The notes beneath the pieces are model-generated. The model was given only the letters and a program-made list of their open reading frames with translations. It was not told where the DNA came from and made no database searches. The translations under genes and the position numbers were made by a program. A stretch of DNA of 64,000 nt, from the IMG/VR virus record IMGVR_UViG_3300039065_000016. One strand, 5' to 3'. Origin of the DNA: a virus. Of the stretch, positions 7,593-37,832 are shown piece after piece; position 1 is the stretch's first letter, and each line of letters starts with the position of its first letter.

Positions 7593-7912
7593 TCTTTCCT
7601 CGTGGCCAGCGCCTGATATTCTGCGAACTCGACACCGTCCAGATAGAACAGGTTTATGCCGTCGCCGAACAACGTCCAATCGGCGTCACGGTCGAAAACG
7701 AAATTGCCATAGTCGGGTCGATACTGGTGGCTATACTGGAGAAGCGGAATTCCGCCGAAGCAGCGGACCCCATGACAAACGATCACGCCGTCGCGGCTGA
7801 TATCGGCATTCATCATATCCAGATTCTGGTACAGACGAATCTTCCAATAGCTGCTGCCGGCGTTAAATGAGATCGCCTGATTCGGGACTGCTGTCAGCGG
7901 AATCTTCTTCAT
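7589..7912 (-). CDS. hypothetical tail-module protein
   Basis: 107-aa ORF. Its start overlaps the tube gene stop at 7912. Confidence 0.5.
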   Translation of the reverse strand: MKKIPLTAVPNQAISFNAGSSYWKIRLYQNLDMMNADISRDGVIVCHGVRCFGGIPLLQYSHQYRPDYGNFVFDRDADWTLFGDGINLFYLDGVEFAEYQALATRKE

Positions 7913-8364
7913 CAGCTAGTACCGGCTTTGACTACTTTCTCGAAACGGAATCGATACGGCTTCGTCTTCAGGCGGCCAACGCTCGCCACCGCATTGATCA
8001 GAACGCCGTCGATGGGAGTGCCGTTGGTACAGGTGATTTTGCTACCGTCCGGCATCGCCACGACCAGACCGATGACATCACGAGCACCCGACTTGTCTTT
8101 TCCGGTGCGGTTGGCATCCAGCAGGACGGCCAAGTTGCGCTCACCCTCGGTGTTCGGGATGACGTTGACGACGACTTCCAGGATGTTGGCCCGGTTCCAA
8201 ACCACCATATCGCCATTGAGGCCGACGCCGGTATCAGCCGCAGTGAACGGCGGGCTGTCGATGGGGTCCGCATCATCAGCGAACTCGGTCACCGTGAATC
8301 CGTTCGGGAAGGTTCTGCTTGCCGTGAATTGGGCAATCGAGCCGAACGCAGAAATGTTGATCAT
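7912..8364 (-). CDS. tail tube protein
   Basis: 150-aa ORF immediately downstream of the sheath gene. Size and position are typical of myovirus tubes. It has a paralog at 6299-6802. Confidence 0.6.
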   Translation of the reverse strand: MINISAFGSIAQFTASRTFPNGFTVTEFADDADPIDSPPFTAADTGVGLNGDMVVWNRANILEVVVNVIPNTEGERNLAVLLDANRTGKDKSGARDVIGLVVAMPDGSKITCTNGTPIDGVLINAVASVGRLKTKPYRFRFEKVVKAGTS

Positions 8365-8391
8365 TGCTTATTCCTCACTCCATTCATGGAA

Positions 8392-8420
8392 GGTTGCGGC
8401 GGTCGAGTCCGCCGCAAACC
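8392..8420 (-). other. intercistronic GC-rich stem-loop between the sheath and tube genes
   Basis: TTGCGGCGG, a 6-nt loop, then CCGCCGCAA. No U-run follows, so this looks more like an RNA-stability or attenuation element than a full terminator. Confidence 0.3.
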
Positions 8421-8421
8421 G

Positions 8422-9936
8422 TTAGATCATTACATCCGATCCTTCGACGAAGCGGATTGCGTCGCCCTTCGAATAGATCAGGGTGTAGTTGGCCTTCCAC
8501 TCGGTCAAGCCGGTGTTGCTGTTGGTATAGCTGGAGAAGGTGATGTTGATCCAATAACCCAAGGTTTGGACTTGACGCCAGGCGCGACGATCACCGGTGA
8601 TTTGGGTGATGTACTGCTGTTGGACGGCGCTGATGTCCTTGCCATAGGTGAAAGTGCCGTTGGAAGTCGCCTTGTCCAGAACCGGCTGGAGGACGGCCAG
8701 AGTCATCGCTTCGCCGACCATGCTGGCCGGAACGGCGTTCACGTTCAAGAACAGATCCAGAAGGGCCTGGGCGATGGCGGACTTCAGCCAGATTTCGTTG
8801 GCGTAGACGTTCATGTCCACCGCATCGGTCGGACCGCCGCACAGAATGCCGCGCTGGTAGAACGCGAGCTGTTGGCCGTTGGCCTGGGTGACGCCGATGT
8901 AGTTGCCCCGGCTCTTGTCGACGGTGTTCGCAACGGTATCGTCGGACACGGTGATGTTGCGGCCAGGGAACTGATAGTACATGTAGTTCTGCGAAGCGCC
9001 CGGCTCGTCATAGTTGGTGGCGGCCAGGATTTCGCTGGGACACTGCTCAACGAAGTCGTTGGAGGCAGTCGCAGACAGAACGTTCAGCGCGGTTCCGGAG
9101 TTGCCCTTCACCAAGTCGAAAAGAGCGCCGAGATTCGCCAGAGAGGTCGCAACCGTATAGATGAACTGGTTGTTCTGAGCCGCGTTCCAGGCCGACACGG
9201 CCTTGATCTGATCGTTGTCGAGGGTCGCCCCGGCGAACAGGAACGAGCCGAAGTTGTTGCTGACATTGGTGCTCTTGGCCACGGCCGCGTCTGGGAGGTC
9301 GGCAGCCTGACCGGCGACGTTCACGACGTTGGAGGTGGACCAGCCGAGGGCGGTGGACATGTCCTGCGGATCGGCCGATTTCGCCACGGCCAGAACGCCG
9401 GTGCCGATGGTAGCGCCGACCAAGGTGAACTGGTTGGTATTCGGATTCCAGGTGACGGTGGCTTGGGCCAACTGCGGATCGGTATTCTTGCGGATTTCGG
9501 TCTGAATGATCGACGCCACGTTGTCCATGGAGGTCGCGGCGGACGTATCGATGGCCGTGATGTTCTGCTCAGACGCGCCGACCATGATGGTCAGAACGCC
9601 TGCGGAAAAGCCGGCGAAATCGGCGATGGTCTTCGGCAGGTTGTCGCCAACTACCATCGGCGCGATGGCGGTGTTGACCCAGCGAGCGAAGCTGATGCTG
9701 GACGGGGAATTGACGCTCTTGCTGATGAACTTGAAGTAGGCCGCAGCGCGCTGATATTCTTCAGACTGGGCGCCGAAGTAAGACATCACCGCGTTGGCAT
9801 TGTCGAACTCGATGACGATTCCAGGCGGAATGACGTTGTTGGTGGTCATGACGCGCAGAATCAGCTTTCGGCCTGCGACCGGAGCGCCTGCGCCTACGCC
9901 GGAAATGATCCGGATATAACGGCTCTGACTGATCAC
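8422..9936 (-). CDS. tail sheath protein
   Basis: 504-aa ORF between the neck genes and the tube gene. Call rests on size and gene order. Confidence 0.65.
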   Translation of the reverse strand: MISQSRYIRIISGVGAGAPVAGRKLILRVMTTNNVIPPGIVIEFDNANAVMSYFGAQSEEYQRAAAYFKFISKSVNSPSSISFARWVNTAIAPMVVGDNLPKTIADFAGFSAGVLTIMVGASEQNITAIDTSAATSMDNVASIIQTEIRKNTDPQLAQATVTWNPNTNQFTLVGATIGTGVLAVAKSADPQDMSTALGWSTSNVVNVAGQAADLPDAAVAKSTNVSNNFGSFLFAGATLDNDQIKAVSAWNAAQNNQFIYTVATSLANLGALFDLVKGNSGTALNVLSATASNDFVEQCPSEILAATNYDEPGASQNYMYYQFPGRNITVSDDTVANTVDKSRGNYIGVTQANGQQLAFYQRGILCGGPTDAVDMNVYANEIWLKSAIAQALLDLFLNVNAVPASMVGEAMTLAVLQPVLDKATSNGTFTYGKDISAVQQQYITQITGDRRAWRQVQTLGYWINITFSSYTNSNTGLTEWKANYTLIYSKGDAIRFVEGSDVMI

Positions 9937-12465: not shown

Positions 12466-12491
12466 ACAAAGGCCGGAAGCCCGGCCTTTGG
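12466..12491 (-). terminator. intrinsic terminator/attenuator after the major capsid gene
   Basis: On the minus strand: AAAGGCCGG, GCTT loop, CCGGCCTTT, followed by GTT. Confidence 0.55.
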
Positions 12492-12505
12492 TGAGTCAGC
12501 ATCGG

Positions 12506-13654
12506 TTAGATGCCGAGGTAGCGCACCACAGCCCAAGGGCGTTTGCAAAGAGCACCGGCGGTGCCGTTGGAGAAATCCTCCACATACGACTTCGCCCGCT
12601 TTTCGACGCCAAGGGTGATGAACTTGCTCTGAACCAGCTGGCTGAACACGCTGCCGCCATCGGTGCTGCCATCGACGGACGCGTCCACTTCTTCGACGAA
12701 GAGGACCAGGGCGTCTTCCGGCGTTTGGCCCTGCATCTGGACGCCGGACAGCTCCGGAGCCGACACGATCCGCATCTTCGGATAGGTCTGTTCGATCCAG
12801 TCAGAAACCGAAATGCCGTAAGGCGTGGTCACCGACAGGTAGTCCACTTTGCTGGTGGCCAGGGCCATGGTGATCTTCTCGGCCTTCGGGTCGATCTGGT
12901 CTTGGCTCTGGATGCGCAGCTGGCGGACGGCCTCACGGATATCGCCGATGATGCCTGCCCAGTCGGCAGTGGCCCAGCCCTGGCTCGGCGGAGTCTGGAA
13001 TGGCGGCAGGTTGGGGTCATTCAGGAAACCATAGGTGCGGTTGCCCAGGCCGCTCTGCCAGCCGTAAAAACCGATGGCGTTGCGGAAGATTTCCAGACCG
13101 ATGGCCGCCTGCTGACGCTTGGCCTCTGCGCTGTTCAGGCGAATGGCCGAAGCGCGGCCCTCTTCCAGAGTACCCACGAGCAGACCCAGCTCACCACGAA
13201 CGATGGTGCGGCGCTCGAAGTTGGCGTTCCAGCTGGTCAGCGGGATGTTGGTGTGGTCACCGTATTCCACCGCAGTGCCGGCCGGCTCAACGATACCCTG
13301 AACGATTTCCTGGTCTTCCCAGGAGCCAACGGTGTCGATGCCGATGATCTCATCGATTTTCCGCGCGGCGGTCATGACCTTCACGAACCCAGGCAACCAG
13401 GTCTGAAGGAACTGGATGGGGGTCGGGATGGACGGCGTGGTCACCGGGGCGGTGAAGTTGCTGTCCATGGCCGAGCCGGAACGGAATGCGCCGGCCTTCG
13501 CCAAGGCCTTGATCTGGTCCTGGACGACGGCGTGATCGAATACCAGGCCGATGCGACTCAGGGCGGCCACGGCTTCGTGGGTGACGTTCTTCAGGTCGAA
13601 TGGTTTTGCGTGACGGCCTGCGAGGCGCGAATGGGTCTTACTGATATGGCTCAT
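12506..13654 (-). CDS. major capsid protein
   Basis: 382-aa ORF following the scaffold and decoration-like genes and followed by a strong hairpin terminator. Composition and order fit the DUF2184-type capsid cassette. Confidence 0.8.
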
Positions 13655-13663
13655 GACGCCTCC

Positions 13664-14299
13664 TTACTGCGTGAGCTGGACGATGGTAACGCCAGCTACC
13701 AGATTTCCCGCCGACTGGGCAGGCAGGCTGATGGCATTGACGATACGCGCGTTGGGGATTTGAACCAGGCCGGTTGGCATGGCGCCGGCCTTGAAACCGA
13801 CCAGGGCGCCGGCCGGCAGGCCCAGGGCGTTGTCGGCGGTAGGCAGGTTGTTCGGTACATATGCCACCGGATCGCCGTAGCTCAAATCCAGAGCGGCTTC
13901 TGCGCCGTTGAAGATTTCGACGACCAGGCCGGTGGCCATGTCGAAGAACTCGCCTTCGGAACCGTCGGGCAGGTCATAACTGGGAGCCAGGGAATCGCCG
14001 GCCGACCCGTACAGAGCATAATGCTTCGGGTGACCGAGGATGCCGAAGAAGGTCGCGCCGCCGACCACGACTTCAGAAGCGCGCGCGGCAACGGTCTTCG
14101 GCTGGCCTTCACCGAGGGAGCCGACATCACCTGCGTAACCAAACGCGCGACTGATGCGGTTGGGGCCGGTGGCAGTCGCGGCCGGAGTGACCGATGCCAA
14201 CGCCATGATCCGACCCGGCCGCGCACGCTTCGGGCCGTCCTCGATCAGATCACCAGGAAAACCAGGAGTGTACTGGCGATAGACTTGTTTCTGGAACAT
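13664..14299 (-). CDS. putative head decoration/cement protein
   Basis: 211-aa G/A-rich ORF between the scaffold and capsid genes. Assigned by position only. Confidence 0.35.
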   Translation of the reverse strand: MFQKQVYRQYTPGFPGDLIEDGPKRARPGRIMALASVTPAATATGPNRISRAFGYAGDVGSLGEGQPKTVAARASEVVVGGATFFGILGHPKHYALYGSAGDSLAPSYDLPDGSEGEFFDMATGLVVEIFNGAEAALDLSYGDPVAYVPNNLPTADNALGLPAGALVGFKAGAMPTGLVQIPNARIVNAISLPAQSAGNLVAGVTIVQLTQ

Positions 14300-14302
14300 G
14301 GG

Positions 14303-15739
14303 TTACTCCCCCTTCAGGTAACTGTCCAGCTCGGCGCACTGCGGAGCAGAACTGGCCGAATCCTGGGCTTTCGATTGACGGCTGGCCGCGCCACGAGCAG
14401 CTTCGACGCCTTTCAGGTACATGTCGAGCGCCAGAACTTCCTGGCCCTTCTCACAGCTGATCGCCAGCTTCTTCACGCCGTAAACAGCGACTTCAGCCGA
14501 GTCCATAGCTCGGTGGTCGAACGCACCAACCACGGAACTAAGACGCTTGTAGAGGCGATCTTTAGCAGCAATGTCGCGATAGAGACCACGAATTGCAGCA
14601 TCTTGCGCGTTCTTTTGTGCCATTTCAGGAAGTTCCTCGCTGTTATCCTTGCCCTCACCACCATCGTCGCTGGCGGTTTGCGCGCCGCAGAGGATGCTCT
14701 GTTCTTCCAAGCCCTCGACGACATCTTGACCTTCGCCATGTTCTTCGTCCGCCTCTTCGGCTACCGTGCCTTCCAGTCGAGCCAGAATGGCCTTGACCTG
14801 GGAGATCAGTTCGGCGACTTCGCCTTCACCGGACATTTCGGATGCGGCACCTTCTTGCTGTTCCGGCTCGACGGCGACCACGGCCGGATCGACAACGGAC
14901 GGCGCTTCTTCGTGCTCTTCGTCGTCTTCCTGAGCGCCTTCCAGAGTCGGATGCTCGGTCATGTGCTCGCTGTCGGTCGGTTCGGCCGGAGCGGTTGCGC
15001 CTTCCTGATGCTCCGGCTCCTGCGCCTCTTCGCCCAGGAACTTCTGGACAGATGCAGAGAGCTTCGGCCACAGGGCGCGCAACTCTTCGACCGCCGAATC
15101 AGCAGCTTGTCCTGCGCGCTGGACAGGAGTCTTCTGCTTGGCTTTCTTGAGACCCATTTCATTACCCTCATCGGATGGTCTGAAATCAAAACTGAGATGG
15201 TCAAAGCACAGACCATCCAATACTCTGGCCCCCGGCACACGACCCTCTTTTACCAGGGCGATGTGGTTGCCGCGCATCTTGTCCTGGACGACTTCATAAG
15301 GCGTTCCATTCCAGATGCCGGGTTGCTCAGTGTAGCGGCAACTATAGCCTAGGGACAGATCTTCCTTGCCCCTTTCCAGCTGATTCTGCATGTTGCGGGA
15401 ATAGATGCGGATATCGCCGCGAGCCCATGGAGCTTCGTAGTAGGCGTTGGCTGTGATGATGCCTTCCACGCCTTTGTCTTCGGGAGCCACGCCATCGTCA
15501 TCGCCGTCGAATCCCGACAGCATTTCGTGCTCGTCGATCAGCGGGAGATTCTTCAGAGATTCGATGTACTCAGGATCGCTAACGGCAGACTCCGGACGAT
15601 ACACGTTGACAATCCGCATCGGATCGCCCGGAAGACCGAGTTGACCGGCAGAATATTGGAAAATGCCATAAGAGCTGATTGGACAGCCCTCGATGGTCAT
15701 ATATCCATTTTCGTCAATTTTTCTTTTCGACTTTGCCAT
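14303..15739 (-). CDS. scaffolding (DUF2213-like) protein
   Basis: 478 aa. N-terminus KRKIDENGYMTIEGCPISSYGIFQY, a long acidic middle and a helical C-terminus. Lies directly upstream of the capsid cassette. Confidence 0.6.
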   Translation of the reverse strand: MAKSKRKIDENGYMTIEGCPISSYGIFQYSAGQLGLPGDPMRIVNVYRPESAVSDPEYIESLKNLPLIDEHEMLSGFDGDDDGVAPEDKGVEGIITANAYYEAPWARGDIRIYSRNMQNQLERGKEDLSLGYSCRYTEQPGIWNGTPYEVVQDKMRGNHIALVKEGRVPGARVLDGLCFDHLSFDFRPSDEGNEMGLKKAKQKTPVQRAGQAADSAVEELRALWPKLSASVQKFLGEEAQEPEHQEGATAPAEPTDSEHMTEHPTLEGAQEDDEEHEEAPSVVDPAVVAVEPEQQEGAASEMSGEGEVAELISQVKAILARLEGTVAEEADEEHGEGQDVVEGLEEQSILCGAQTASDDGGEGKDNSEELPEMAQKNAQDAAIRGLYRDIAAKDRLYKRLSSVVGAFDHRAMDSAEVAVYGVKKLAISCEKGQEVLALDMYLKGVEAARGAASRQSKAQDSASSAPQCAELDSYLKGE

Positions 15740-15771
15740 CGTTAATTCGAAGAGTCGTGGACTATGGCTGT

Positions 15772-15800
15772 ATTATATACGCAGGACATCTAAGGGTAAA
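15772..15800 (-). promoter_or_regulatory. sigma70-type promoter for the scaffold/capsid operon
   Basis: On the minus strand: TTTACC (15800-15795), N17, TATAAT (15777-15772), about 33 nt upstream of the scaffold ATG. Confidence 0.55.
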
Positions 15801-15854
15801 TAAGCGGAACAATAATTCGATGTAGCCGCGACTGTTAATTTACACTAGAATCTG

Positions 15855-16250
15855 TATTGTGACCTAATTACCGGACTTCCTCAGCCGCGAAAACTGGTAA
15901 ATTGGTTTCGGAAATTTGACGGGATTTGTCTAGGCCTACTGCCGCAAGACTTTCAATCTTTAAACTAATCCAAATTACCAATTTACCGATTAAAAATTGA
16001 ATTTCAATGCGTATAGAGCATATCGATTAACGTTATATTATAACGTTACTTATAGATGAATTCTATTAGAACGTTATTCCTAATTTCCCATGCTATATAC
16101 TTTTGCGGCATGCGGCGAAATCGGAAATTAGGAATTTAGCCTGTTAAAGCCTTGCGGCAGTAGGATTTCCAAATTACCGCTATTTCCCAGAAACGGTAAT
16201 TTGCGGCTATCCGGACCAGAATTTTTAGTCAGAATCCGGATTCTCGCGGC
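15855..16250. repeat. non-coding module copy R1 (inverted-repeat-flanked AT-rich core with AAWTTACC repeats)
   Basis: Perfect 14-bp inverted repeat at 15935-15948 / 16151-16164. Eight blocks collinear with 35445-35860. No credible ORF. Confidence 0.75.
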
Positions 16251-16251
16251 A

Positions 16252-16392
16252 TCATCCGCCGAAAGCAATCAGGATTGAGACGCCGATGATGGCCAGATCA
16301 ACTGCGGCAAACTTCAGGCTGAAGAATCCGCCGTTAATATTGGCCTTGATCACATCGGTCGCGAGTCGGCGTATGCATGTCTTTCGGTTCAT
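16252..16392 (-). CDS. small membrane protein (46 aa; below the ORF-track cutoff)
   Basis: I read it as [46 protein letters not shown]. Its ATG forms an ATGA overlap with the stop of 16389-16595. C-terminal transmembrane helix. Confidence 0.35.
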
Positions 16393-16595
16393 TTCACGAG
16401 CCTCGACAGCGAGTCTACCAGGGCGCGAAGATCAGCGACGAGTTCATGCGAACAATCTTTCGCCTTCTTCTCTTTCTCGCTGCGCTGGACGGAATAGGCT
16501 ATGGCGACTGCCTGTTTCGGGTCTTTCCCTGCTTCAATCTCCCGCTTGATGTTTTCAGAACGGGCTTCATTGGAAGTTCCATGGACTAACGGCAT
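16389..16595 (-). CDS. small conserved head-module protein
   Basis: 68 aa with an AGGAG ribosome-binding site. [28 protein letters not shown] resembles a small family often seen next to Mu F-like genes. The competing + strand ORFs lack ribosome-binding sites. Confidence 0.55.
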
Positions 16596-16614
16596 ATCGC
16601 ACTCCTATCGATGA

Positions 16615-17451
16615 CTAAATGATCGGGATTTTTCTGCACCGGCAGTTAATCGCCCAACCTGGCGGTCCTTGGTCGGCCTTTGGACCTTCCCAAAGTCTAG
16701 GGTCATTCAGTTTGAATCTTTTCCCGTCCTTTTCCAGGTGGGTATGGCGAGGCGTCTTCCCTGCCGAAGAGTGCATCCATTCGAACTCTTCGACTCCATT
16801 CTCTGCCATTCTCTCATCACTCAACGAACTGTAAAGTTTACTGGTTTGATCTCTTGCGATGAGTTCGATTCGGTTTTCAGAAAACTTTCCGACTTCTCGA
16901 AGTGCATTTGTTATTCCAGAAGTTCCTTGTTCCTCTGGGTTTGGGGAAGTCAGAGACAACATTACAGATGTGTAAATTTTCTCGTGGACTTCCTCTTGAA
17001 TGTTGGTGATGAGGGTATGGTTGTAAGTAGTCGCGGCTTCCAGGGTGTTCCTGACGCTCTCATTGTATGAAGCTCGCGGCTGATCGACGCCGGCCACCGA
17101 CAGGCTGTGTAGAGTCGCAGCGGTCGCGGCTTCGTCGGCCCGATTGACGAACTCCGGGGCGATCTTGGCCGCGAAACCTTCAAAGATGCGATTCCATCGC
17201 TGCTGAAGGCTTCGCAGAGTCATCTTGAACAGGACGTTCACCGATTCGTCTTTCGCGAAAAACCGTTCTGCCGCAGGCTGGGATATGGCCTTCTCGATTT
17301 CACTTCGATAATCGGCGATCATGAGTCTGGCCATATCCTTCATTTGCTTTCGATACCAGGCTTCGATTCCAGCAGAAGGAATTATGGGCTTGCCTCTTCC
17401 GACTGGAAGAGGCCCCCGGCGTTCGCGTTTCTTGGAGGCTTTGAACGCCAT
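16615..17451 (-). CDS. Mu F-like / SPP1 gp7-like minor head morphogenesis protein
   Basis: C-terminal HTHLEKDGKRF...WAINCRCR motif. I set the start at the ATG at 17451, which makes an ATGA overlap with the portal stop. Confidence 0.75.
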   Translation of the reverse strand: MAFKASKKRERRGPLPVGRGKPIIPSAGIEAWYRKQMKDMARLMIADYRSEIEKAISQPAAERFFAKDESVNVLFKMTLRSLQQRWNRIFEGFAAKIAPEFVNRADEAATAATLHSLSVAGVDQPRASYNESVRNTLEAATTYNHTLITNIQEEVHEKIYTSVMLSLTSPNPEEQGTSGITNALREVGKFSENRIELIARDQTSKLYSSLSDERMAENGVEEFEWMHSSAGKTPRHTHLEKDGKRFKLNDPRLWEGPKADQGPPGWAINCRCRKIPII

Positions 17452-19748
17452 CACTTGCCTCCAAATGGCTTCGTCGTGTCGCCATTTGCCAGCCAACGAC
17501 GGAAGGCGGGCAGATCAACTTCATGGATGGAGCCGAGTCCATCCCAGCCCGGACGGAAGCAAGACAGATATCCAGACTTGGCGTCGTTAATGTTGTTGAA
17601 ACCGAGCATGCACTTGTGCTCGTCGAATTGCCCATCTTTGTTCACCTGGTTGACGACGAAGACCCGTTTCGAACCAAGGTTCGGGCCTACGAAGCAATCG
17701 ACCTCATCCCCATCAGCCCCCTTCGTACCTTTGATGAATCCATAGTGGTGCTTCATCTGGACTCGCCAGCTCCCGTCCTTCCCTTGCCGGATACTTCCGC
17801 GCGGATTTTCGATCAAGGTAGTAATTCCATTGACCTTGATCCTCTGGAGTTCAGAATGATCACGAGGGCCGACGATGCGGTTGGACGAAAACACCGAAGG
17901 CTCCATACCCGATACGCTCGGCTTTGACGTTCTCTTCAGACCTGGCGCGTCATCCTGCTCTATGTCCACGCCGTCCGGAGCCTGCGCGTCGTCCAGGGCT
18001 TCGAGTTTCGACAGTAGATCGGACAGCAGGTTCCGAAGCTCGGCCCTGGGGTTCGGCCGCGACGGCGGTGTAGCGGCCTCGCCGGCCCCTTCCTCGGCCG
18101 CTTTCGCGAGGGGCTTAGTACCGCGTGGAGCGGCCGGAACTGGGTCGCCTGCGCCTTCTACGGCGCCCGCTTGGGCTTCGGCTCGCTCGGCCTCGCCTTT
18201 CGCCTTCGCCGACTGTGCACCGGCCTTTTCGAGTTCGGCCAGGTTTTCCGGAGACATGCCCGGCTCGGTTTCGGCCTGATCGTCGGTGAGTCGATTATAG
18301 CCGGAGCGCGGATCATCACGCAGGCGCTCGCGGACTTCATCCGGAGACACGACGCCGGAATTGATATAAATTTCATCAGTAGCAGCCTTCTTGTTGTTCA
18401 GCTCGGCTTGTTGCTGGCTGGTTGTGGAATCCACAGGGTTCCAGACGATTTCCAGCTGTACATCGATTGCTTCCGATTTTGCCAGCAGCAAATAATGACG
18501 CTCAAGCAGCGGGTCGAATATATGCTCTTGAATCGATTCCAACTCTTCGTGATAAGAAATCGTCTCGTGCTCACCAGTCGCGTTGAATCCTTTGGGAGAA
18601 GTGCCGAGTAGCTTCGTCGCAGGAGTCTTGGCGATGGCCGCAACCAGCTGATATTGGTTCATGATGACGCTGTCGAAATCGGACAGGTTCGTATCGAACT
18701 GCTCCATGGTTTCATCAATACCAATAACTTTCACGCCATGGTTGTCTCGATTGGCGATCCAGAACGCCAGACGGGCGTTGAAGGCATCCTCATTCGCGAT
18801 GGCCTTTTCCACGTCAACGTGAATGGTGCTGGTTCGCTTCGACATCGCCAGCAACGGCGCTTCGTTCGCAGTTCGCTCGGCAGCATACACGCGCTCGTAA
18901 ATGCGCTGGGTGAGCGGGATGCCTCCGAAAATGTATGTCGGCTTCAGGATATCTGGCGGCTGCGGCCCACGAACGACCACCAGATGGCTGCGATGATACT
19001 TCTTCCCGCTGATGATCCAAAAATCGGGCTCATAGAAGTGTTCGGCAGACGGGTCTGCCGTGGACTCTGCGGTCAGCTGAGGCATTGCCCAATATGGATC
19101 TATCTGGGAAATTCCCTTGTACGAGCCGGGCGCTATTCCGTCTGGGTTGAATGGCTTCTCATAGTAGTCCGGATCGTCAGACTCAACGACGAACAGAGCG
19201 ATTCGAACGCCGAAGACGTTTTTGAATCGGTTCAATTCGACGAGGTTGTCTTTGACGCGAAACTCCATGTCGCGCCGAGCGATCAGCGCGCTTTGTTCAT
19301 CAGACAGCTTCCGGCCATCCGATTTGAGTTCCCATCCGTTCCGCGCGGCGTCTTCGCCTGACATGGAGCAAGCTTTGTCGACCAACCAGTGTTGAGAAAT
19401 GATGGCGCAAGCTTGGTATCCGATGAATCCTTGGGAGTTATACCAGTCCTGCAGCATGGTCGGAACTACATAGGGATTCTGGCCGCCAGCGGCAGCTTTC
19501 GCGGCTGGGGTGGGTCCGTCACCATACGCACTGTCCATTGCGACGGATAGGCCCGGCTCCAGGAAATCCTTCACGCTACGGATGACCGGGGCTTTCTCCG
19601 GCTCGACATTCCAGCCGCGAATCTTCCCCAGCTTAATCATAGGGTCGAGCGGATCGTGTTGAGGGATTCGTGCGACTTTCTCCGGCGCCGATTCAGAACA
19701 GGCAACATTATCCTTTTTGCGCCCGAATATCCAGGAAAGTTTAAACAT
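17451..19748 (-). CDS. portal protein with C-terminal inorganic-pyrophosphatase-like domain
   Basis: 765-aa first gene of the leftward morphogenesis operon, upstream of the Mu F-like gene. The last ~135 aa carry IENPRGS...YGFIKGTKGADGDEVDCFV...DEHK. Confidence 0.75.
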   Translation of the reverse strand: MFKLSWIFGRKKDNVACSESAPEKVARIPQHDPLDPMIKLGKIRGWNVEPEKAPVIRSVKDFLEPGLSVAMDSAYGDGPTPAAKAAAGGQNPYVVPTMLQDWYNSQGFIGYQACAIISQHWLVDKACSMSGEDAARNGWELKSDGRKLSDEQSALIARRDMEFRVKDNLVELNRFKNVFGVRIALFVVESDDPDYYEKPFNPDGIAPGSYKGISQIDPYWAMPQLTAESTADPSAEHFYEPDFWIISGKKYHRSHLVVVRGPQPPDILKPTYIFGGIPLTQRIYERVYAAERTANEAPLLAMSKRTSTIHVDVEKAIANEDAFNARLAFWIANRDNHGVKVIGIDETMEQFDTNLSDFDSVIMNQYQLVAAIAKTPATKLLGTSPKGFNATGEHETISYHEELESIQEHIFDPLLERHYLLLAKSEAIDVQLEIVWNPVDSTTSQQQAELNNKKAATDEIYINSGVVSPDEVRERLRDDPRSGYNRLTDDQAETEPGMSPENLAELEKAGAQSAKAKGEAERAEAQAGAVEGAGDPVPAAPRGTKPLAKAAEEGAGEAATPPSRPNPRAELRNLLSDLLSKLEALDDAQAPDGVDIEQDDAPGLKRTSKPSVSGMEPSVFSSNRIVGPRDHSELQRIKVNGITTLIENPRGSIRQGKDGSWRVQMKHHYGFIKGTKGADGDEVDCFVGPNLGSKRVFVVNQVNKDGQFDEHKCMLGFNNINDAKSGYLSCFRPGWDGLGSIHEVDLPAFRRWLANGDTTKPFGGK

Positions 19749-19782
19749 TTTAATTCCATGCGGTTGCTGGTTGTGTGCACTT

Positions 19783-19810
19783 ATTATAGGGGAAACATCA
19801 AACGTTCAAA
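19783..19810 (-). promoter_or_regulatory. sigma70-type promoter for the portal operon
   Basis: On the minus strand: TTTGAA/TTGAAC (19810-19804), N15-16, perfect TATAAT (19788-19783). Confidence 0.45.
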
Positions 19811-19872
19811 AGAGATTCAAACAGATACATCACATTAACAGTCGCAACTAATCAGTTATGAGAAAATAATTC

Positions 19873-19901
19873 TTTACGGGAACTTTTCGGCAGATTAGAC
19901 T
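19873..19901 (+). promoter_or_regulatory. early promoter
   Basis: TTTACG, N17, TAGACT. Divergent from the portal promoter. Confidence 0.5.
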
Positions 19902-19927
19902 CTAATTATCAACCAATGGAGATTAAC

Positions 19928-20329
19928 ATGAATCCTCTTCTTCCTATCGTACATATCGTGTTGAAGGACGGCGAAGTTCTGGGCGTGTTCGACTGCGACA
20001 AATCTGCGAAGTGGTACAGCAATGTGAAAGACGCAGTTGTGGATTCCTGGGTAGTGGAATCGCCGAACAGCTCGCGCTCGCGCCTTGTCAGAAAAGAGTG
20101 CTATGAAGTCGGAGATCACGTCATGTATCGCGATGAGCACGGCGAAGGGCACGGCCGCATATTGGCTGTCGAACCTCGCGGTGAATCGGCGCGTGACGAG
20201 AAAGAATTGTACCACCTGTATCAGATCAATAGCGACGATCCGTCCGTGGACATTTGGATGCTCGACGCAGACATCATCGGCATTTATCCCGACGAAAAGC
20301 GCTTTACTTCTGAAGAGCAGATGGAATAA
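19928..20329 (+). CDS. hypothetical early protein
   Basis: First rightward ORF after promoter 19873-19901. The ATG at 19928 has a GGAG ribosome-binding site (alternative ATG at 19916). Confidence 0.55.
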   Translation: MNPLLPIVHIVLKDGEVLGVFDCDKSAKWYSNVKDAVVDSWVVESPNSSRSRLVRKECYEVGDHVMYRDEHGEGHGRILAVEPRGESARDEKELYHLYQINSDDPSVDIWMLDADIIGIYPDEKRFTSEEQME

Positions 20330-20360
20330 AATCTGCTCATCTACCAAAGAGGGTGAAGAA

Positions 20361-20684
20361 ATGGCAAGCATCACAGTATGGATCGCCACTGCTTTCCTTT
20401 GTACTGGCGATGGCTGTGTCCAGATGCCGGATCATACCAGCAGACGGTTCGACAGCAAAGCTCAGTGCGAAGACGTCATGCTAAGAGCGATTGATAAGAT
20501 GTGGGAGCGACATCAACTGGTTGTTCGGGCCGTTTGCACGCCTTATTTCCTCAGCAGTACAGAAGTTCCCGGCTTTTACAGTCCGCCGCCCCAGCCGCCC
20601 ACTGGTCTGAACCATATGTGGGACAGTTGGATTCGCGGCGGCAGCATCCCGTCTTATGAGCCGGGAAGGGGTTGGAGCGAATGA
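20361..20684 (+). CDS. hypothetical protein with N-terminal hydrophobic segment
   Basis: Internal ATG with a GAGGGTG ribosome-binding site (MASITVWIATAFLCTG...). The longer track ORF (from 20085) overlaps the previous gene. Confidence 0.5.
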   Translation: MASITVWIATAFLCTGDGCVQMPDHTSRRFDSKAQCEDVMLRAIDKMWERHQLVVRAVCTPYFLSSTEVPGFYSPPPQPPTGLNHMWDSWIRGGSIPSYEPGRGWSE

Positions 20685-34544: not shown

Positions 34545-35123
34545 TTATGTCTGAATGGGGTTGGCGCGGTCTTCCTCGGTCGGCTCCGGCGTCGGGGACG
34601 GGAAATCGCCCTCTTCGCCGTCCTGCACATAGCCATTGGCTTCGGCCGCAGCAGCGACGGTGGCGGTCTGAGCCTCGGCTTCTGATGCGTAGAAGTCGGC
34701 CAATCCGCGACCTACCCTGGTCTTACCAGACTCGTCAACGAACGTGATTTCGGCCAGAACGTTCAATTCCTTGATGGCCGACAGACGGCTGGAGTCCTTG
34801 ACGGTGGGATCACGAACCATCTGGAGAAGTTCGTGAAGCGCCGTCTTTGGATTCCATAGATCGGACGTTCTGGTCGCATTCAGCTTGGCTTTGAATTGCT
34901 TGCGATAGTACGGGTTGGACTCCATCGCGAAGATGCGGGCCTGGGCCGGGCCATCCATGTGCTCTTCGCCCCAGATCGCTCTGAAGACCCGCCAGGAGCT
35001 ATAGCCTTGAACGCGCAGGTCGATGTACAGATCGAAACGCTTCTGGTTGATCGCCGCGAACTGCGGATCAGCGAATTCCTGTGGCGTGACTAAATCGTCG
35101 GGGCTGTAATATTTGGCGGTCAT
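34545..35123 (-). CDS. putative terminase small subunit
   Basis: 192-aa lone leftward gene. LWNPKTALHELLQMVRD...RLSAIKELNVL resembles small-terminase helical motifs, and there is an acidic C-terminal tail. The call is tentative. Confidence 0.4.
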   Translation of the reverse strand: MTAKYYSPDDLVTPQEFADPQFAAINQKRFDLYIDLRVQGYSSWRVFRAIWGEEHMDGPAQARIFAMESNPYYRKQFKAKLNATRTSDLWNPKTALHELLQMVRDPTVKDSSRLSAIKELNVLAEITFVDESGKTRVGRGLADFYASEAEAQTATVAAAAEANGYVQDGEEGDFPSPTPEPTEEDRANPIQT

Positions 35124-35444: not shown

Positions 35445-35860
35445 GCCCTGTGACCAAATTTCCGGTTCCGCTCGTCGAGTTTTGGCCCCTGCCGCTTAGT
35501 CCGCCGTGGTGTTGCCGCTGCCCATGGTTTGGAAGGACGGAAGTTTCCGGCGACCCTGCCGCGAGTTGAGTGGAATCGGAAACTCGACGGGTAGTGTACC
35601 GGCTTAGTGCCGCGAGGCTTTCAAAGACTAAACTATTCCAAATTACCAAATTACCATTAATTTTATTAATTTTAAAGATAGGTAACGTCCGTGATAGATT
35701 TTTTCTATTAGGATTGTGCAATCGATTTTCGCTGTAGAATAGTTTTAAACCATGCTCGAAAAACCGGGAATTAGGGAATATGGCCGCAAACCCGCGCGGC
35801 AGTAGGCCTCCCATCTTCCCAGTCAGAATAGCAATCCAGGAATTTGCGGCTATTTCCACA
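35445..35860. repeat. non-coding module copy R2
   Basis: Collinear blocks shared with R1: 35449-35465, 35575-35591, 35603-35626, 35627-35656, 35703-35711, 35767-35779, 35797-35807, 35841-35853. Confidence 0.75.
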
Positions 35861-36092: not shown

Positions 36093-37832
36093 TCAGAAAT
36101 CCTCGCCCAATATCTTGGCTCGCTCTGCCCGTACTGCTCGAATTTTTGCCATGGCAGCCTCATCGGTCATATCCGGATCGCCCTTTCTCAACAGATACAC
36201 CAGCGCATCATTGAATGGCGGCAGCGTCGTCTGCATATTCTTCGACCAGTCAGGCGCGACCTTATCCACAGGCAGGCACCATCCATTCAGGCCGTTCTTA
36301 TTCGGAATGAATCCCAGCGCTTTCAGGTGTGGAGTTAAATGGCGAGAAATCGGCTTCTTCCTGGCGAGAATATCGAACCACTTCAGAATGGAAACGGTGT
36401 CTGCCCTCCACCCAGGAGTCTTGGAATTCCCACCAGGCTTAACCTCTTCGAACTCACAACTGATCAGGACATTGATCAGATACATATCAATCGTATCGTC
36501 GCGAACCACGCCGCGCGCATTCTCCATTTCCGAAATAGAGAAGTTCTGGACTTCGCGGTTTGCTTCCGACACCATATTCAGGTAGCCATCGACGCCGTGC
36601 TCTTCGATCCATGCGCGGCATTCAGCCATCGCTTGCCAGAATTTGCGGCCGAAGTCGGTGAAGTCCACCTTGAACGGTTCATTGCCATCGCCCGGCTTAA
36701 CCCAGTTCGGCTTTCCATCCTCATCGGGCAGTTGCGCAACAAACATAGGATAGAAACGTCGGTTACCAGAGTCGTCCCGCTGGAGTCCATCGTAGCCGTT
36801 GCCGTCCATGATGGTGATCCATTGTCGCTTGATCGTTTCGCCCGGCTCAAACTTCTGGTCGAATGTATCAGAAGACCGCACCAAGAACTCCTTGATGCGT
36901 TCCATGTCGCCCTTTTTGAAGCCGGACATTTCCCCGACGTTCGCAATGACCGAGTTGCCGGTGATGTTGCGCAGGAATGGTGTCTGGTCGTGTCGGCTCA
37001 GGTCGAGCTGGACGGGAGCCAGATCGCGACCGCCCGACAGTTCCTTGCAGATCAGCAGGCCGAAATAGGATTTCCCCGCATCCTGCCCACCAATCAACGC
37101 CAGCGAGATCGGCGCCGAGATTCCAGGATAGTTGATGCGGCAGTACAGGCTCAGCCAGAAATACTTGCTCACCATCCGGTTCAATTCGGTGTCGAATGGC
37201 TTAAAAAGATCGATCAGCAACGTGCTAATTCGCTCTTCGCCGTCCCACTCCGGTATCTTCTTCTCGAACGTCTCTATCAGCGAGTTGCGGCGGTATCGAC
37301 GCGCCCAAACGCAGCAAGTCTCAATCGTCTTCTTAATCGAGGGATCGTCCAAGGCCGCAGCCGCGAGGGCGCCCATCAGGTCAATCGGGTCGAGGGTCTT
37401 GTTGTTGAACGCCACGCCGCGATGGTCCACCAGCCGTCCGCGAAACTCGTCGAAGTGCGGATGCGGGACGGTTCCATCACCCTTGCAGAACAAAGTATCG
37501 TACACCGCGAGATAGTTGCTGTCGGAAGTCGAGCTGTATTTAGTGATGAAGTCATCGAACGGCCCTTTCACCACCCGGCTGACCGGAAGATCGAACGCCT
37601 GGTCGAGCATCAACAATCGCGCTCGCTTTCTCAAGTCTGGTTCCGCATACGCCTCGGCGTATCTTGCCGCCTTTTGTGCGCGGTGCGTTTCGTTCCTCGC
37701 AATCGCATCATCGGCCGCCTTGCTCGCGGCGGTCATCAAAGGGTCCATTCCAGCATCTTCTATCTGTGTGAGATCGAACTCACTGGACCCTGATTCGTCA
37801 TCATCAAAAATATTATCTTCGTCGATAATCAT
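36093..37832 (-). CDS. VirE-family P-loop ATPase (putative replicative primase-helicase component)
   Basis: 579 aa. Walker A IGGQDAGKS and VirE-like GNGYDGLQRDDSGNRRFYPMFV. Confidence 0.65.
   Translation of the reverse strand: MIIDEDNIFDDDESGSSEFDLTQIEDAGMDPLMTAASKAADDAIARNETHRAQKAARYAEAYAEPDLRKRARLLMLDQAFDLPVSRVVKGPFDDFITKYSSTSDSNYLAVYDTLFCKGDGTVPHPHFDEFRGRLVDHRGVAFNNKTLDPIDLMGALAAAALDDPSIKKTIETCCVWARRYRRNSLIETFEKKIPEWDGEERISTLLIDLFKPFDTELNRMVSKYFWLSLYCRINYPGISAPISLALIGGQDAGKSYFGLLICKELSGGRDLAPVQLDLSRHDQTPFLRNITGNSVIANVGEMSGFKKGDMERIKEFLVRSSDTFDQKFEPGETIKRQWITIMDGNGYDGLQRDDSGNRRFYPMFVAQLPDEDGKPNWVKPGDGNEPFKVDFTDFGRKFWQAMAECRAWIEEHGVDGYLNMVSEANREVQNFSISEMENARGVVRDDTIDMYLINVLISCEFEEVKPGGNSKTPGWRADTVSILKWFDILARKKPISRHLTPHLKALGFIPNKNGLNGWCLPVDKVAPDWSKNMQTTLPPFNDALVYLLRKGDPDMTDEAAMAKIRAVRAERAKILGEDF

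What the first reader, a model, noticed from the sequence alone, without database searches (positions are those of the whole stretch)
15855..16250. Non-coding module R1: perfect 14-bp inverted repeats around a ~200-bp AT-rich core with AAWTTACC iteron-like repeats, inside the head operon
About 510 bp (15740-16251) between a small membrane ORF and the scaffold gene has no credible ORF. CCTACTGCCGCAAG (15935-15948) recurs as a perfect inverted copy, CTTGCGGCAGTAGG (16151-16164). The 202 bp between the two copies is strongly AT-rich in an otherwise GC-rich genome. CCAAATTACC/AATTTACCG occurs in tandem at 15970-15988, again at 16169-16179, and inverted at 15894-15905 and 16194-16203; the last pair forms AAATTACCG-N14-CGGTAATTT. 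A 14-bp perfect palindrome, AGAATCCGGATTCT, sits at 16231-16244. Iterons, an AT-rich core and flanking dyads are the grammar of replication origins, packaging or partition sites, or multi-site regulator platforms. I know of no such element described for this phage type. The head-operon promoter (15772-15800) lies about 135 bp downstream, so an upstream control region is an equally live hypothesis.
Basis: partly seen in the sequence, partly recalled or inferred. Interest (0 to 1): 0.72.

Follow-up and report, generated by a model that had tools for sequence, protein, structure and literature searches.

The report
Second origin-like DNA module in PB1-type phage
The 510-bp gene-free stretch in the head-gene cluster of this PB1-like Pseudomonas phage is a real non-coding DNA element, a near-duplicate of the region next to the replication-helicase and small-terminase genes where DNA packaging starts, and it most likely works as a second loading site for the phage's replication-initiator helicase.

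Summary
The window is a Pbunavirus (PB1-like) genome, about 99.7% identical to phage E79.

R1 (15740-16251) has a paralogue, R2 (about 35576-35853), 72% identical. R2 lies between the Rep-like helicase gene and terS. R2's AT-rich core holds the mapped packaging start (window 35724). The genome ends of the terminal-repeat relatives WFC and MTx map to the same core.

An R1 module upstream of the head-protease gene recurs in at least six lineages. Each lineage has its own 7-11-bp iteron, shared only with its own R2 where a whole genome was searched.

A pentamer is conserved across genera: GCCGC upstream and GCGGC downstream of the AT core. Counts are 32/1 versus 5/46 in 15 modules.

This is the grammar of SaPI Rep origins. 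The phage helicase upstream of R2 is a sequence and fold homologue of SaPI1 Rep.

Published start-site mapping in phage 14-1 finds only the proximal head promoter in R1.

Best reading (about 0.5): R1 is a second Rep-type origin module that lacks the packaging cut. Rivals are a non-cleaved terminase platform, a promoter control region, and an RNA element. No replication or binding data exist.

The parts
15740..16251 (.). R1: the whole non-coding gap between the 46-aa ORF and the head protease/scaffold gene
   Evidence: No conserved ORF. Retained at full length in 279 of 283 Pbunavirus records. 39% G+C against 55% for the window. A non-coding gap of 356-452 bp at the same position in other lineages.
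15954..16145 (.). AT-rich core between the inverted-repeat arms: the candidate DNA-unwinding element
   Evidence: 31% G+C, falling to 25-27% in 100-150-nt sub-windows. The lowest-GC spot in the window. Partly homologous to the R2 core, but it differs around the R2 cut site.
15935..15953 (.). Promoter-side arm of the long inverted repeat (CCTACTGCCGCAAGACTTT)
   Evidence: 19 nt, 95% complementary. 1 of 1000 shuffles reaches a 14-bp perfect repeat. A paired change CAAG/CTTG to CGAG/CTCG separates the two Pbunavirus clades. Similar arms occur in other lineages (TAGTGCCGC / GCGGCAGTAAG in L020).
16146..16164 (.). Distal arm of the long inverted repeat (AAAGCCTTGCGGCAGTAGG)
15825..15945 (-). Array of three GCGGC pentamers on the minus strand (plus-strand GCCGC at 15825, 15884, 15941), on the promoter side of the core, spaced 57-59 bp
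   Evidence: Orientation is strictly opposite to the array on the other side. The same polarity is seen in 15 modules.
16105..16250 (+). Array of five GCGGC pentamers on the plus strand (16105, 16112, 16154, 16203, 16246), on the far side of the core
   Evidence: R1 and R2 are the two richest 500-bp windows for GCGGCW in the 64 kb.
15865..15987 (.). Genus-specific 8-mers on the promoter side of the core: TAATTACC at 15865 (+), AATTTACC at 15896 (-), and the tandem AAATTACC/AATTTACC at 15972-15987 (+)
   Evidence: The tandem pair recurs in R2 at 35640-35655.
16171..16202 (.). Genus-specific 8-mers on the far side of the core: the inverted pair AAATTACCG-N14-CGGTAATTT
16028..16135 (.). Inner dyads of the core: TAACGTTATA/TATAACGTTA (16028-16048) and ATTCCTAATTTCCCAT/ATCGGAAATTAGGAAT (16076-16135)
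   Evidence: They account for much of the very stable single-strand fold (z = -6.5). The second dyad has no partner in R2.
15765..15800 (-). Head-operon sigma-70 promoter: -35 TTTACC at 15795-15800, -10 TATAAT at 15772-15777, TSS at about 15765
   Evidence: Scan. Predicted earlier in LMA2 and phiKTN6. Mapped TSS in phage 14-1: P014 at 13257 (+), with identical hexamers. It lies outside the iteron/AT-core module.
16231..16244 (.). Palindrome AGAATCCGGATTCT just after the stop of the 46-aa ORF; probably not part of the element
   Evidence: Present. Broken in the PB1 clade (AAAATCTGGATTCT). Not scored as a terminator. No termination site is mapped there in 14-1.
35576..35853 (.). R2: the paralogue of R1, lying between the Rep-like helicase gene and terS. 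Packaging start at about 35724. Its GCGGC array continues towards terS, as far as 35197.
   Evidence: R1-R2 similarity. JG024 read-start hotspot 59,376 aligns to window 35724. Several GenBank records start or end at that point. Third-lowest... rather, the second-lowest GC spot in the window.
36093..37832 (-). Rep-like self-loading helicase (579 aa): the candidate binder of R1 and R2
   Evidence: VapE-like domain. phmmer match to SaPI1 Rep, PDB 7PDS, E = 4.9e-14. AlphaFold model with pLDDT 89; best Foldseek hit 7PDS at E about 1e-17 over roughly 490-500 alignment columns of a target of about 450 residues; C-terminal helix/strand pattern typical of a winged helix.
34545..35123 (-). Small terminase (TerS): the alternative candidate binder
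   Evidence: phmmer match to E217 TerS, PDB 7UXE, E = 2.8e-121. PHROG 4783, shared with WFC gp1.

Best explanation
R1 is the second of two paralogous copies of a Rep-type, origin-like module.

**Proposed mechanism.** The steps below are inferred by analogy with SaPI origins.
1. The phage's SaPI-Rep-like initiator helicase (window 36093-37832) recognises short repeats with its C-terminal winged-helix domain.
2. The repeats sit in two sets of opposite orientation on either side of the most AT-rich 130-190 bp of the genome.
3. One hexamer loads on each side.
4. The AT core melts.
5. The RepB'-type primase (38171-39247) primes synthesis.

[quoted passage not shown] R2 also carries the terminase cut that starts packaging. 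R1 keeps the repeats and the AT core, but in the alignments it differs from R2 at that cut site, and no virion ends have been reported in it.

**What is shown.**
- R1 is real, widely retained, and paralogous to R2.
- The repeat arrays are polar, in mirror image around the core.
- The helicase is a Rep homologue.
- The packaging start lies in R2.
- R1 contains only the proximal promoter's start site.

**What is inferred.** Rep binds R1, and replication starts there.
For: 1. **Paralogy.**
   - R1 and R2 align at 72% identity over 338 columns.
   - The same holds in WFC (75%), MTx (78%) and BcepF1 (76%), with identical runs of 20-30 nt.
2. **Lineage-specific repeats shared only by the two modules.**
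   - In Pbunavirus, 7 of 8 AAWTTACC copies lie in R1 or R2.
   - In BcepF1, all 11 CTTAGTTA copies lie in the two modules.
   - In WFC the repeat family CGTATCAT/CCGTATCA clusters at the two modules, with a few scattered single hits elsewhere.
3. **Origin grammar.**
   - A pentamer is conserved across genera and points in opposite directions on the two sides of the AT core.
   - In 15 modules, GCCGC occurs 32 times upstream and once downstream. GCGGC occurs 5 times upstream and 46 times downstream (Fisher p = 8e-17).
   - R1 itself has 5 + 3 copies.
   - SaPI origins are described as 6-12 penta- or hexanucleotide iterons. Half lie on each side of an AT-rich centre, with at least two per side pointing in opposite directions, immediately downstream of rep (PMC9371898).
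4. **A cognate initiator exists.**
   - The 579-aa protein upstream of R2 matches SaPI1 Rep by sequence (E = 4.9e-14).
   - It also matches by predicted fold over nearly the full length of the target.
   - An independent paper names it the candidate initiator (PMC12390725).
5. **Conserved gene order.** The order primase, rep, module holds in Pbunavirus, BcepF1, MTx and XcP1, in three metagenomic phages and in a Burkholderia gladioli island.
6. **AT-richness.** R1 and R2 are the two most AT-rich spots in the window.
7. **No sign of packaging or transcription start in the R1 module.**
   - No virion ends have been reported in R1. One read-start hotspot was seen in JG024, at R2, and one class of fixed read end was seen in the Abidjan phages.
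   - No TSS or termination site lies in the R1 module.
   - So, of the two activities attributable to this module type, only the origin-like one remains open to R1.
Against: - There are no replication-initiation or Rep-binding data for any of these phages.
- The only experimentally mapped property of this module type is the packaging cut in R2.
- R1 is not next to rep.
- The GCGGC pentamers in R1 are spaced mostly 43-59 bp apart. My recollection, which I did not check, is that SaPI iterons are more closely packed.
- It is unresolved whether Rep reads the pentamers or the genus-specific 8-mers.
- Cumulative GC-skew minima reported for Pbunavirus fall elsewhere, at about 41 and 51 kb in window coordinates. 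These coincide with switches in gene orientation, so they say little either way.
- Within Pbunavirus, R1 diverges as fast as four-fold degenerate sites of the neighbouring gene, at about 10%. The repeats are only non-significantly more conserved than the spacers.
- XcP1 keeps a gap upstream of the protease gene, but it lacks this architecture.
- terS is as constant a neighbour of R2 as rep is.
Confidence: 0.5

Rival explanations
1. R1 is a non-cleaved copy of the pac site (a pseudo-pac). It would be a platform for the small terminase, perhaps with helpers, that is bound but not cut. It could pair with the true pac site R2, as in the T4 'twin-ring pac synapsis' model, or tie packaging to head-gene expression.
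For: - The sister module R2 holds the packaging start in Pbunavirus. In WFC and MTx it holds the left end of the direct terminal repeat.
- R2 lies directly upstream of terS in Pbunavirus, WFC, MTx, BcepF1 and four further cassettes.
- In the alignments, R1 has an indel within 0-3 nt of the R2 cut position in Pbunavirus, WFC and MTx.
- The tandem repeats are spaced 7-9 bp apart. That could suit neighbouring subunits of a ring-shaped TerS; this point is inference.
- Physical pairing of the two sites would explain why R1 and R2 stay alike within each genome.
- Overexpressing TerS lowers E217 infectivity (PMC9611059).
Against: - No ends have been reported in R1.
- E217 TerS showed no appreciable DNA binding in vitro (PMC9611059).
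- Mirror-image arrays suit a two-directional process better than one-directional packaging.
- Two pac-like sites in one genome have no established precedent outside the debated T4 model.
- In XcP1 the module stays with rep while terS lies 3 kb away.
Confidence: 0.22
2. R1 is an upstream control region. A phage DNA-binding protein would occupy the repeats to switch or tune the sigma-70 head promoter just downstream. R2 would do the same for terS.
For: - A conserved sigma-70-type promoter sits 25-40 nt before the protease start codon in every lineage examined. It is experimentally active in 14-1 (P014).
- Both modules lie upstream of promoters: P014 for R1, and P040/P041 for R2.
- In BcepF1, L020 and L023 the last GCGGC overlaps the promoter spacer or lies next to the -10 element.
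- A near-consensus promoter in front of late genes calls for some form of timing control.
Against: - The repeats are found at only two loci, although 14-1 has about 26 sigma-70-type promoters.
- The distance from the module to the promoter varies between lineages.
- The model does not explain the AT core, the mirror symmetry, or the packaging cut in R2.
- No dedicated regulator has been identified.
Confidence: 0.12
3. R1 acts as RNA. It would be a structured intercistronic segment of the late transcript, for example an RNase III processing site that uncouples portal mRNA from capsid mRNA, or a small RNA.
For: - The sense strand folds very stably (-76.8 kcal/mol, z = -6.5).
- The stem closing that fold shows one compensatory change between clades.
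- No terminator separates R1 from the upstream genes, so read-through transcripts should contain it.
Against: - No Rfam match, even at E = 1.
- No TSS or termination site in the module in 14-1.
- The arm sequence is conserved as sequence across genera rather than covarying.
- Most of the pentamers have no pairing partner.
- The inner hairpin is absent from R2.
- The paired change in the arms is equally expected if one protein reads both arms.
Confidence: 0.04
4. R1 is a relic with no function of its own: either a decaying duplicate of R2 or a MITE-like insertion with terminal inverted repeats.
For: - It is bounded by 14-19-bp inverted repeats and occurs in two copies per genome.
- Within the genus it evolves at about the synonymous rate.
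Against: - Position and architecture are kept in at least six lineages that share no alignable DNA in this region.
- R1 tracks R2 within every genome examined.
- Its length stays at 503-513 bp, and no natural deletion was found among 283 records. The one apparent exception also lacks the protease gene and is probably an assembly gap.
- There is no target-site duplication.
Confidence: 0.03

Closest known systems
SaPI/PICI replication origins bound by Rep self-loading helicases (Staphylococcus pathogenicity islands)
   Same: - Short repeats in two sets of opposite orientation flank an AT-rich centre.
- The repeat count falls in the 6-12 range.
- The gene order is primase, rep, origin (true of R2).
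- The initiator is a homologous SF3/VapE-type helicase with a C-terminal winged-helix-like domain.

   Different: - The setting is a virulent 66-kb myovirus family, not a satellite island.
- There are two paralogous modules per genome. R1 is about 20 kb from rep, inside the head-gene cluster.
- The pentamers are more widely spaced.
- A second, genus-specific repeat class is present.
- The sister copy also carries the packaging cut.
- Rep binding has not been tested.
Phage P4 ori and crr (two clusters of 8-bp type I iterons bound by the alpha primase-helicase); from my own knowledge, not checked here
   Same: Two separated clusters of the same short repeat in one genome, read by an SF3 primase-helicase.
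   Different: - The P4 sites are not extended paralogues.
- They have no central AT core with mirror-image arrays, as far as I recall.
- Neither site has any link to packaging.
pac sites with repeats flanking the cut (P1 pac, from my own knowledge; SPP1 pacL/pacC/pacR)
   Same: Repeats or multiple contact points lie on both sides of the initial terminase cut (SPP1: PMC9611059). R2 fits this layout, and R1 copies R2.
   Different: Those phages have a single pac site. R1 shows no cutting. The arrays here are mirror-symmetric.
T4 gene 16 pac site and its gene 19 look-alike ('twin-ring pac synapsis' model)
   Same: Two related sites in direct orientation in one genome, proposed to be paired by TerS rings (PMC9611059).
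   Different: - The T4 sites are short and lie inside genes.
- The model is debated, and the review says it may be limited to T4.
- Nothing here shows TerS binding.
Viral origins with inverted pentamer or box arrays around an AT-rich or palindromic centre (SV40 GAGGC pentamers; HSV-1 oriS/oriL); from my own knowledge
   Same: The repeats are arranged in mirror image so that two helicase assemblies can load. HSV-1 also has paralogous origins within one genome.
   Different: The initiators are unrelated apart from the broad SF3 class, and the hosts are eukaryotic.

Membership tests
SaPI/PICI-type Rep origin | 6-12 short (penta- or hexanucleotide) iterons | tested here: met
   R1 has 8 GCGGC pentamers, plus 6 copies of the genus-specific 8-mer allowing one mismatch. 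The defining feature is taken from PMC9371898.
SaPI/PICI-type Rep origin | An AT-rich region near the centre with about half of the iterons on each side | tested here: met
   The core 15954-16145 has 31% G+C, with 3 pentamers on one side and 5 on the other.
SaPI/PICI-type Rep origin | At least two iterons on each side, pointing in opposite directions | tested here: met
   In R1 all 3 copies on one side and all 5 on the other face opposite ways. Across 15 modules the counts are 32/1 versus 5/46.
SaPI/PICI-type Rep origin | [quoted passage not shown] | tested here: not met
   R1 lies about 20 kb from rep, upstream of the head protease gene. Its paralogue R2 meets this feature in Pbunavirus, BcepF1, MTx, XcP1 and four further cassettes. 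R2 does not meet it in WFC.
SaPI/PICI-type Rep origin | A cognate Rep initiator-helicase with a C-terminal winged-helix domain is encoded by the element | tested here: met
   phmmer match to 7PDS at E = 4.9e-14. Foldseek match to 7PDS at E about 1e-17 over roughly 490-500 alignment columns. The predicted segment 446-525 has a helix/strand pattern typical of a winged helix. The winged-helix assignment rests on prediction only.
SaPI/PICI-type Rep origin | Rep binds the iterons and melts the AT region, and replication starts there | not testable with these tools
   This needs EMSA or footprinting, a melting assay, and marker-frequency or plasmid-replication tests.
pac site (headful or terminal-repeat packaging start) | Virion DNA ends or read starts map to the site | tested here: not met
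   Published ends map to R2 (window 35724), not to R1. This was judged from the literature and from where GenBank records start, not from raw reads.
pac site (headful or terminal-repeat packaging start) | Located in or next to the small terminase gene | tested here: not met
   R1 is about 20 kb from terS. R2 lies directly upstream of it.
pac site (headful or terminal-repeat packaging start) | Bound by the small terminase | not testable with these tools
   E217 TerS showed no appreciable DNA binding in vitro, according to PMC9611059. Which DNA was tested is not known to me.
Described RNA family | Match to an Rfam covariance model | tested here: not met
   No match at gathering thresholds, and none at E up to 1.
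Miniature inverted-repeat transposable element | Terminal inverted repeats with a target-site duplication, and copies at non-homologous positions | tested here: not met
   Inverted repeats are present but there is no flanking duplication. There are only two copies, each at a position conserved across genera.

The most novel reading that the evidence does not exclude
The module serves both replication and packaging. The same nucleoprotein site would load the Rep helicase and mark where terminase cuts. In the terminal-repeat relatives, rightward replication starting in the R2 core would define and duplicate the repeat.

R1 would be the cut-free twin. It could fire as a second origin, or be paired with R2 to sense that the concatemer is mature. 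That would be a natural two-site system of the kind proposed, and never settled, for T4.
Probability: 0.2. Interest if true: 0.8.

Novelty: new variant of a known kind. Interest (0 to 1): 0.6.

Why it matters
- **Therapeutic relevance.** Pbunaviruses are among the most widely used therapeutic Pseudomonas phages. Their replication origin is unknown, and reports on their genome ends conflict.
- **Testable sites.** This analysis gives two precise candidate cis sites and two candidate binders. Both can be tested with the genome-reboot systems already published for JG024 and phiR26.
- **Reconciling the literature.** Placing the packaging start in one of the two modules fits both the 'defined ends' and the 'circularly permuted' reports.
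- **Engineering.** People who engineer these genomes should not treat the 510-bp 'gap' as a free insertion site.
- **Wider biology.** If the origin reading holds, a SaPI-type self-loading initiator system operates in a large family of virulent myoviruses. One of its origin copies would then coincide with the packaging start, a link between replication and packaging that has rarely been examined.

Tried and rejected
- **Phage-specific promoter in R1.** The CTGGG motif reported for 14-1 occurs at 16186-16190, but it is not conserved in the PB1 clade. None of the eleven 'other motif' start sites lies in R1.
- **Sigma-70 promoters predicted inside the AT core.** These were annotated in LMA2 and JG024, but no TSS is mapped there.
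- **Small RNA or terminator.** No Rfam hits. No tRNA. No termination site in R1.
- **Host-factor sites.** No IHF or DnaA consensus in R1 or R2.
- **Genome-wide polarity of GCGGC.** There is none; the arrays are local.
- **GC skew as origin evidence.** Uninformative, because the extremes follow gene orientation.
- **A natural R1 deletion.** FBPa35 lacks R1 but also most of the protease gene and part of the MuF gene. This is probably an assembly gap, so it says nothing.
- **Using gene neighbours to choose between Rep and TerS.** The evidence is symmetric. WFC keeps the module with terS, 9 kb from rep; XcP1 keeps it with rep, 3 kb from terS.
- **Genome ends in Carpasinavirus.** All the records are collinear, so they give no information on ends.
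No Pfam, NCBIfam or informative PDB match; the PHROG families they hit have no known function.
- **'Blocks conserved, spacers drift' within the genus.** The test is under-powered. Repeats are 6% variable against 15% for spacers, from six sequences in two clades.
- **Papers and data I could not read.** The E217 terminase paper is not held. The journal version of the 14-1 paper has no supplement held, so I used the bioRxiv supplement.
Full report
**What the window is**

- The region is 99.7% identical to Pseudomonas phage E79 and about 90-99% identical to about 280 other PB1-like phages of the genus Pbunavirus.
- The window runs opposite to the usual map, so the structural genes lie on the minus strand.
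- In the direction of transcription the order is: portal (19748-17451), MuF-like head morphogenesis protein (17496-16615), a 68-aa ORF, a 46-aa ORF (16392-16252), the gap R1 (16251-15740), the DUF2213 head protease/scaffold (15739-14303), the decoration protein, and the major capsid protein.

- The 14-bp perfect inverted repeat extends to 19 nt with one mismatch. A perfect repeat that long arose in 1 of 1000 dinucleotide-preserving shuffles.
- AAWTTACC occurs five times in R1 against 0.11 expected. Seven of its eight copies in the window lie in R1 or in one other place.
- The stretch between the repeat arms has 31% G+C in a 55% genome. R1 is the lowest-GC spot in the 64 kb.
- No ORF in the gap survives the single-base indels seen among relatives.
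- Two details do not hold up as functional. The palindrome at 16231-16244 and a CTGGG at 16186-16190 are both lost in the PB1 clade.

**R1 has a twin**

- A self-comparison of the window finds a second module, R2, at about 35576-35853. In sense orientation the two align at 72% identity over 338 columns.
- R2 is the second-lowest-GC spot in the window.
- It lies between the terminator of a 579-aa 'DNA primase' gene (36093-37832) and a 192-aa gene (34545-35123). The 192-aa gene is the small terminase, matching the solved E217 TerS at E = 2.8e-121.
- In the search with R1, 283 Pbunavirus records gave 526 matching places, two in most records listed. The second place was not inspected in each record; I take it to be R2, as in the window.

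**R2 is where packaging starts**

- Several GenBank records from different laboratories begin or end at window position about 35724-35726. Many others place terS about 600 nt from their first base.
- Essoh et al. saw a class of reads with one fixed end and moved the genome start accordingly (PMC4482731).
- Ipoutcha et al. found 36 of 161 long nanopore reads of JG024 starting at 59,376 +/- 5, together with a matching pac fragment (PMC10913387). That position aligns exactly to window 35724, inside the R2 AT core.
- This suggests a way to reconcile the conflicting reports of 'defined ends' and 'circularly permuted' genomes.

**The arrangement belongs to a family**

| Lineage | Gap upstream of the head protease gene | Repeat of that lineage |
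|---|---|---|
| Pbunavirus (this window) | 512 bp | AAWTTACC |
| Serratia phage MTx | 356 bp | ACTTTTC / GAAAAGT |
| Escherichia phage WFC | 421 bp | CCGTATCAT |
| Burkholderia phage BcepF1 | 410 bp | CTTAGTTA |
| Metagenomic lineage L020 | 452 bp | TTATCCGATAA |
| Metagenomic lineage L022/L023/L025 | 370 bp | GTTGCGG |

- Each gap has an AT-rich core flanked by that lineage's own 7-11-bp repeat in both orientations.
- In the genomes searched whole, the repeat clusters at one other locus, the R2 equivalent. In BcepF1 it occurs nowhere else. In WFC a few scattered single hits also occur.
- The R2 equivalent sits directly upstream of a terS homologue in WFC, MTx and BcepF1. In BcepF1 that terS is unannotated.
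- The 3,784-bp direct terminal repeat of WFC begins inside the R2' core, between the repeat clusters. The PhageTerm-defined repeat of MTx does the same.
- Within each genome R1 and R2 are 72-78% identical, with identical runs of 20-30 nt. Between genera nothing in these regions is alignable. The two copies therefore evolve in concert.
- In the alignments R1 carries an indel within 0-3 nt of the R2 cut position in all three lineages with end data. These alignments run through AT-rich sequence and are uncertain.
- Xanthomonas phage XcP1 is an exception. It keeps a 370-bp gap upstream of the protease gene, without this architecture and without the two small ORFs. It still has an R2-like module next to its helicase gene.

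**A motif conserved across genera**

- Besides the lineage-specific repeats, a pentamer recurs with strict polarity. On the sense strand GCCGC lies upstream of the AT core and GCGGC lies downstream.
- In the first 11 modules the counts are 23/0 and 2/27. In four further cassettes they are 9/1 and 3/19. Combined, Fisher p = 8e-17.
- R1 has 5 + 3 copies.
- R1 and R2 are the two richest 500-bp windows for GCGGCW in the 64 kb.
- There is no genome-wide polarity.

**What the grammar matches**

- The 579-aa protein upstream of R2 has a VapE-like domain. It matches SaPI1 Rep (PDB 7PDS) at E = 4.9e-14.
- A confident AlphaFold model (pLDDT 89) has 7PDS as its best structural match, at E about 1e-17. 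The match spans roughly 490-500 alignment columns against a target of about 450 residues.
- The model's C-terminal part has the helix/strand pattern typical of a winged helix.
- Qiao et al. describe SaPI replication modules as primase gene, rep gene, then the origin immediately downstream. The origin has 6-12 penta- or hexanucleotide iterons recognised by Rep's winged-helix domain. Half lie on each side of an AT-rich centre, with at least two per side pointing in opposite directions. One hexamer probably loads on each side (PMC9371898).
- The window has a RepB-type primase (38171-39247), then Rep, then R2.
- The same cassette — primase or other upstream genes, rep, a 660-1080-nt gap with an AT core, then a terS homologue — recurs in three metagenomic phages and in a Burkholderia gladioli genomic island.
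- The Banzai paper independently names this helicase as the likely initiator (PMC12390725).

**Transcription data**

The supplement of the ONT-cappable-seq study of phage 14-1 lists 50 start sites and 14 termination sites (bioRxiv 10.1101/2023.10.13.562163).

- In R1 there is exactly one start site, P014 at 13257 (+). This places the TSS at about window 15765, 26 nt before the protease ATG.
- There is no start site and no termination site in the iteron/AT-core module.
- The sigma-70 promoters predicted inside the core by earlier annotators are not confirmed.
- R2 has two start sites. P040 lies right after the tandem 8-mers; its -10 element is degenerate in the E79-like clade, including this window. 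P041 lies just before terS.

**How I weigh the explanations**

| Explanation | Confidence |
|---|---|
| Second Rep-type origin-like module | about 0.5 |
| Non-cleaved terminase platform (pseudo-pac) | about 0.22 |
| Control region for promoter P014 | about 0.12 |
| RNA element | about 0.04 |
| Relic or mobile element | about 0.03 |

- *Two attributes of the module type.* A packaging cut is shown, for R2 only. An origin grammar with a homologous initiator encoded alongside is inferred.
- *Second origin.* R1 keeps the grammar, has no reported ends and has no start site in the module. The simplest reading is therefore that R1 is a second Rep-loading, origin-like site.
- *Pseudo-pac.* This is the main rival. 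It is favoured by the R2 cut and the terS linkage. Against it stand the absence of ends in R1, the reported lack of DNA binding by E217 TerS (PMC9611059), and the mirror symmetry of the arrays.
- *Control region.* This fits the position of the module, but it does not explain the AT core, the symmetry or the R2 cut.
- *RNA.* The strong fold (z = -6.5) follows from the nested DNA dyads. Nothing else supports an RNA role.
- *Relic or mobile element.* Conservation of position across lineages rules this out in practice.

**Caveats**

- Nobody has mapped replication starts or Rep binding in these phages.
- Within Pbunavirus, R1 diverges about as fast as four-fold degenerate sites, at about 10%. The repeats are only weakly, and not significantly, more conserved than the spacers. 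The case for function therefore rests on conservation of architecture across genera and on the concerted evolution of R1 with R2.
- Gene neighbourhood cannot separate Rep from TerS as the binder. WFC keeps the module with terS; XcP1 keeps it with rep.

**Novelty**

- Earlier work annotated promoters in R1 and remarked on the AT-rich pac region.
- I found no paper that notes the following:
  - the R1/R2 duplication;
  - its conservation across the family;
  - the polar pentamer arrays;
  - the match to SaPI origin grammar.
- The searched library is incomplete. The original PB1 comparative paper and the E217 terminase paper could not be read.
- I rate this as a new variant of a known kind of element.

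Noticed in passing
window 35124-35575: About 450 bp between R2 and terS is strongly C-rich on the sense strand, highly conserved among Pbunaviruses, and carries further GCGGC repeats. A 228-aa ORF (35314-36000, minus strand) spans it together with R2. JG024 annotates an equivalent gene (ORF78), but 1-nt indels among relatives argue that it is not a real gene.
   Followed up: partly
window 34545-35123 (-): The small terminase gene is labelled 'hypothetical protein' in most of the Pbunavirus records listed, although it matches the solved E217 TerS structure at E = 2.8e-121.
   Followed up: yes
L012 (BcepF1 record) 20088-20498, minus strand: BcepF1 has an unannotated terS homologue here (34% identity to the Pbunavirus TerS). 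The record instead annotates small plus-strand ORFs (BcepF1.059-.061) over the same DNA.
   Followed up: partly
window 19721-19969: This is the third-lowest-GC spot in the window, upstream of the portal gene. It corresponds to the divergent promoters P012/P013 mapped in 14-1. It has no R1/R2-type repeats.
   Followed up: partly
L031 (FBPa35, ON857938.1) about 45839-46647: This 62.3-kb record lacks about 2.3 kb covering most of the protease gene, R1, the two small ORFs and part of the MuF gene. This is probably an assembly gap rather than a viable deletion.
   Followed up: partly
L033 (Burkholderia gladioli GCA_902831575.1) 6001-9419: A chromosomal island with an integrase and a resolvase carries the same cassette: a Rep-like helicase, a 1.08-kb module with an AT core and polar GCGGC arrays, and a terS homologue. 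It may be a satellite or a remnant of this phage family.
   Followed up: partly
window 34000-37500 versus 15000-17000: The head region is 99.7% identical to E79. The best match for the R2/primase region is only 96.5% (phage chumba), and E79 is not among the records listed for that region. The source genome therefore looks like a mosaic.
   Followed up: no
L005 (XcP1) 2125-2494: XcP1 lacks the 68-aa and 46-aa ORFs found upstream of R1 in the other genera. Its gap has different hairpins and no GCGGC arrays.
   Followed up: partly
window 12488-15352 (+): A 954-aa ORF runs antisense to the capsid, decoration and protease genes. It is almost certainly a by-product of G+C-rich coding sequence on the other strand.
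   Followed up: no
window 35624 (-), equivalent to 14-1 P040: In 14-1 a start site lies 100 nt inside the packaged left end and points towards terS. Its -10 element (TATACT) reads AATAGT in this window, so the promoter may be inactive in E79-like phages.
   Followed up: partly
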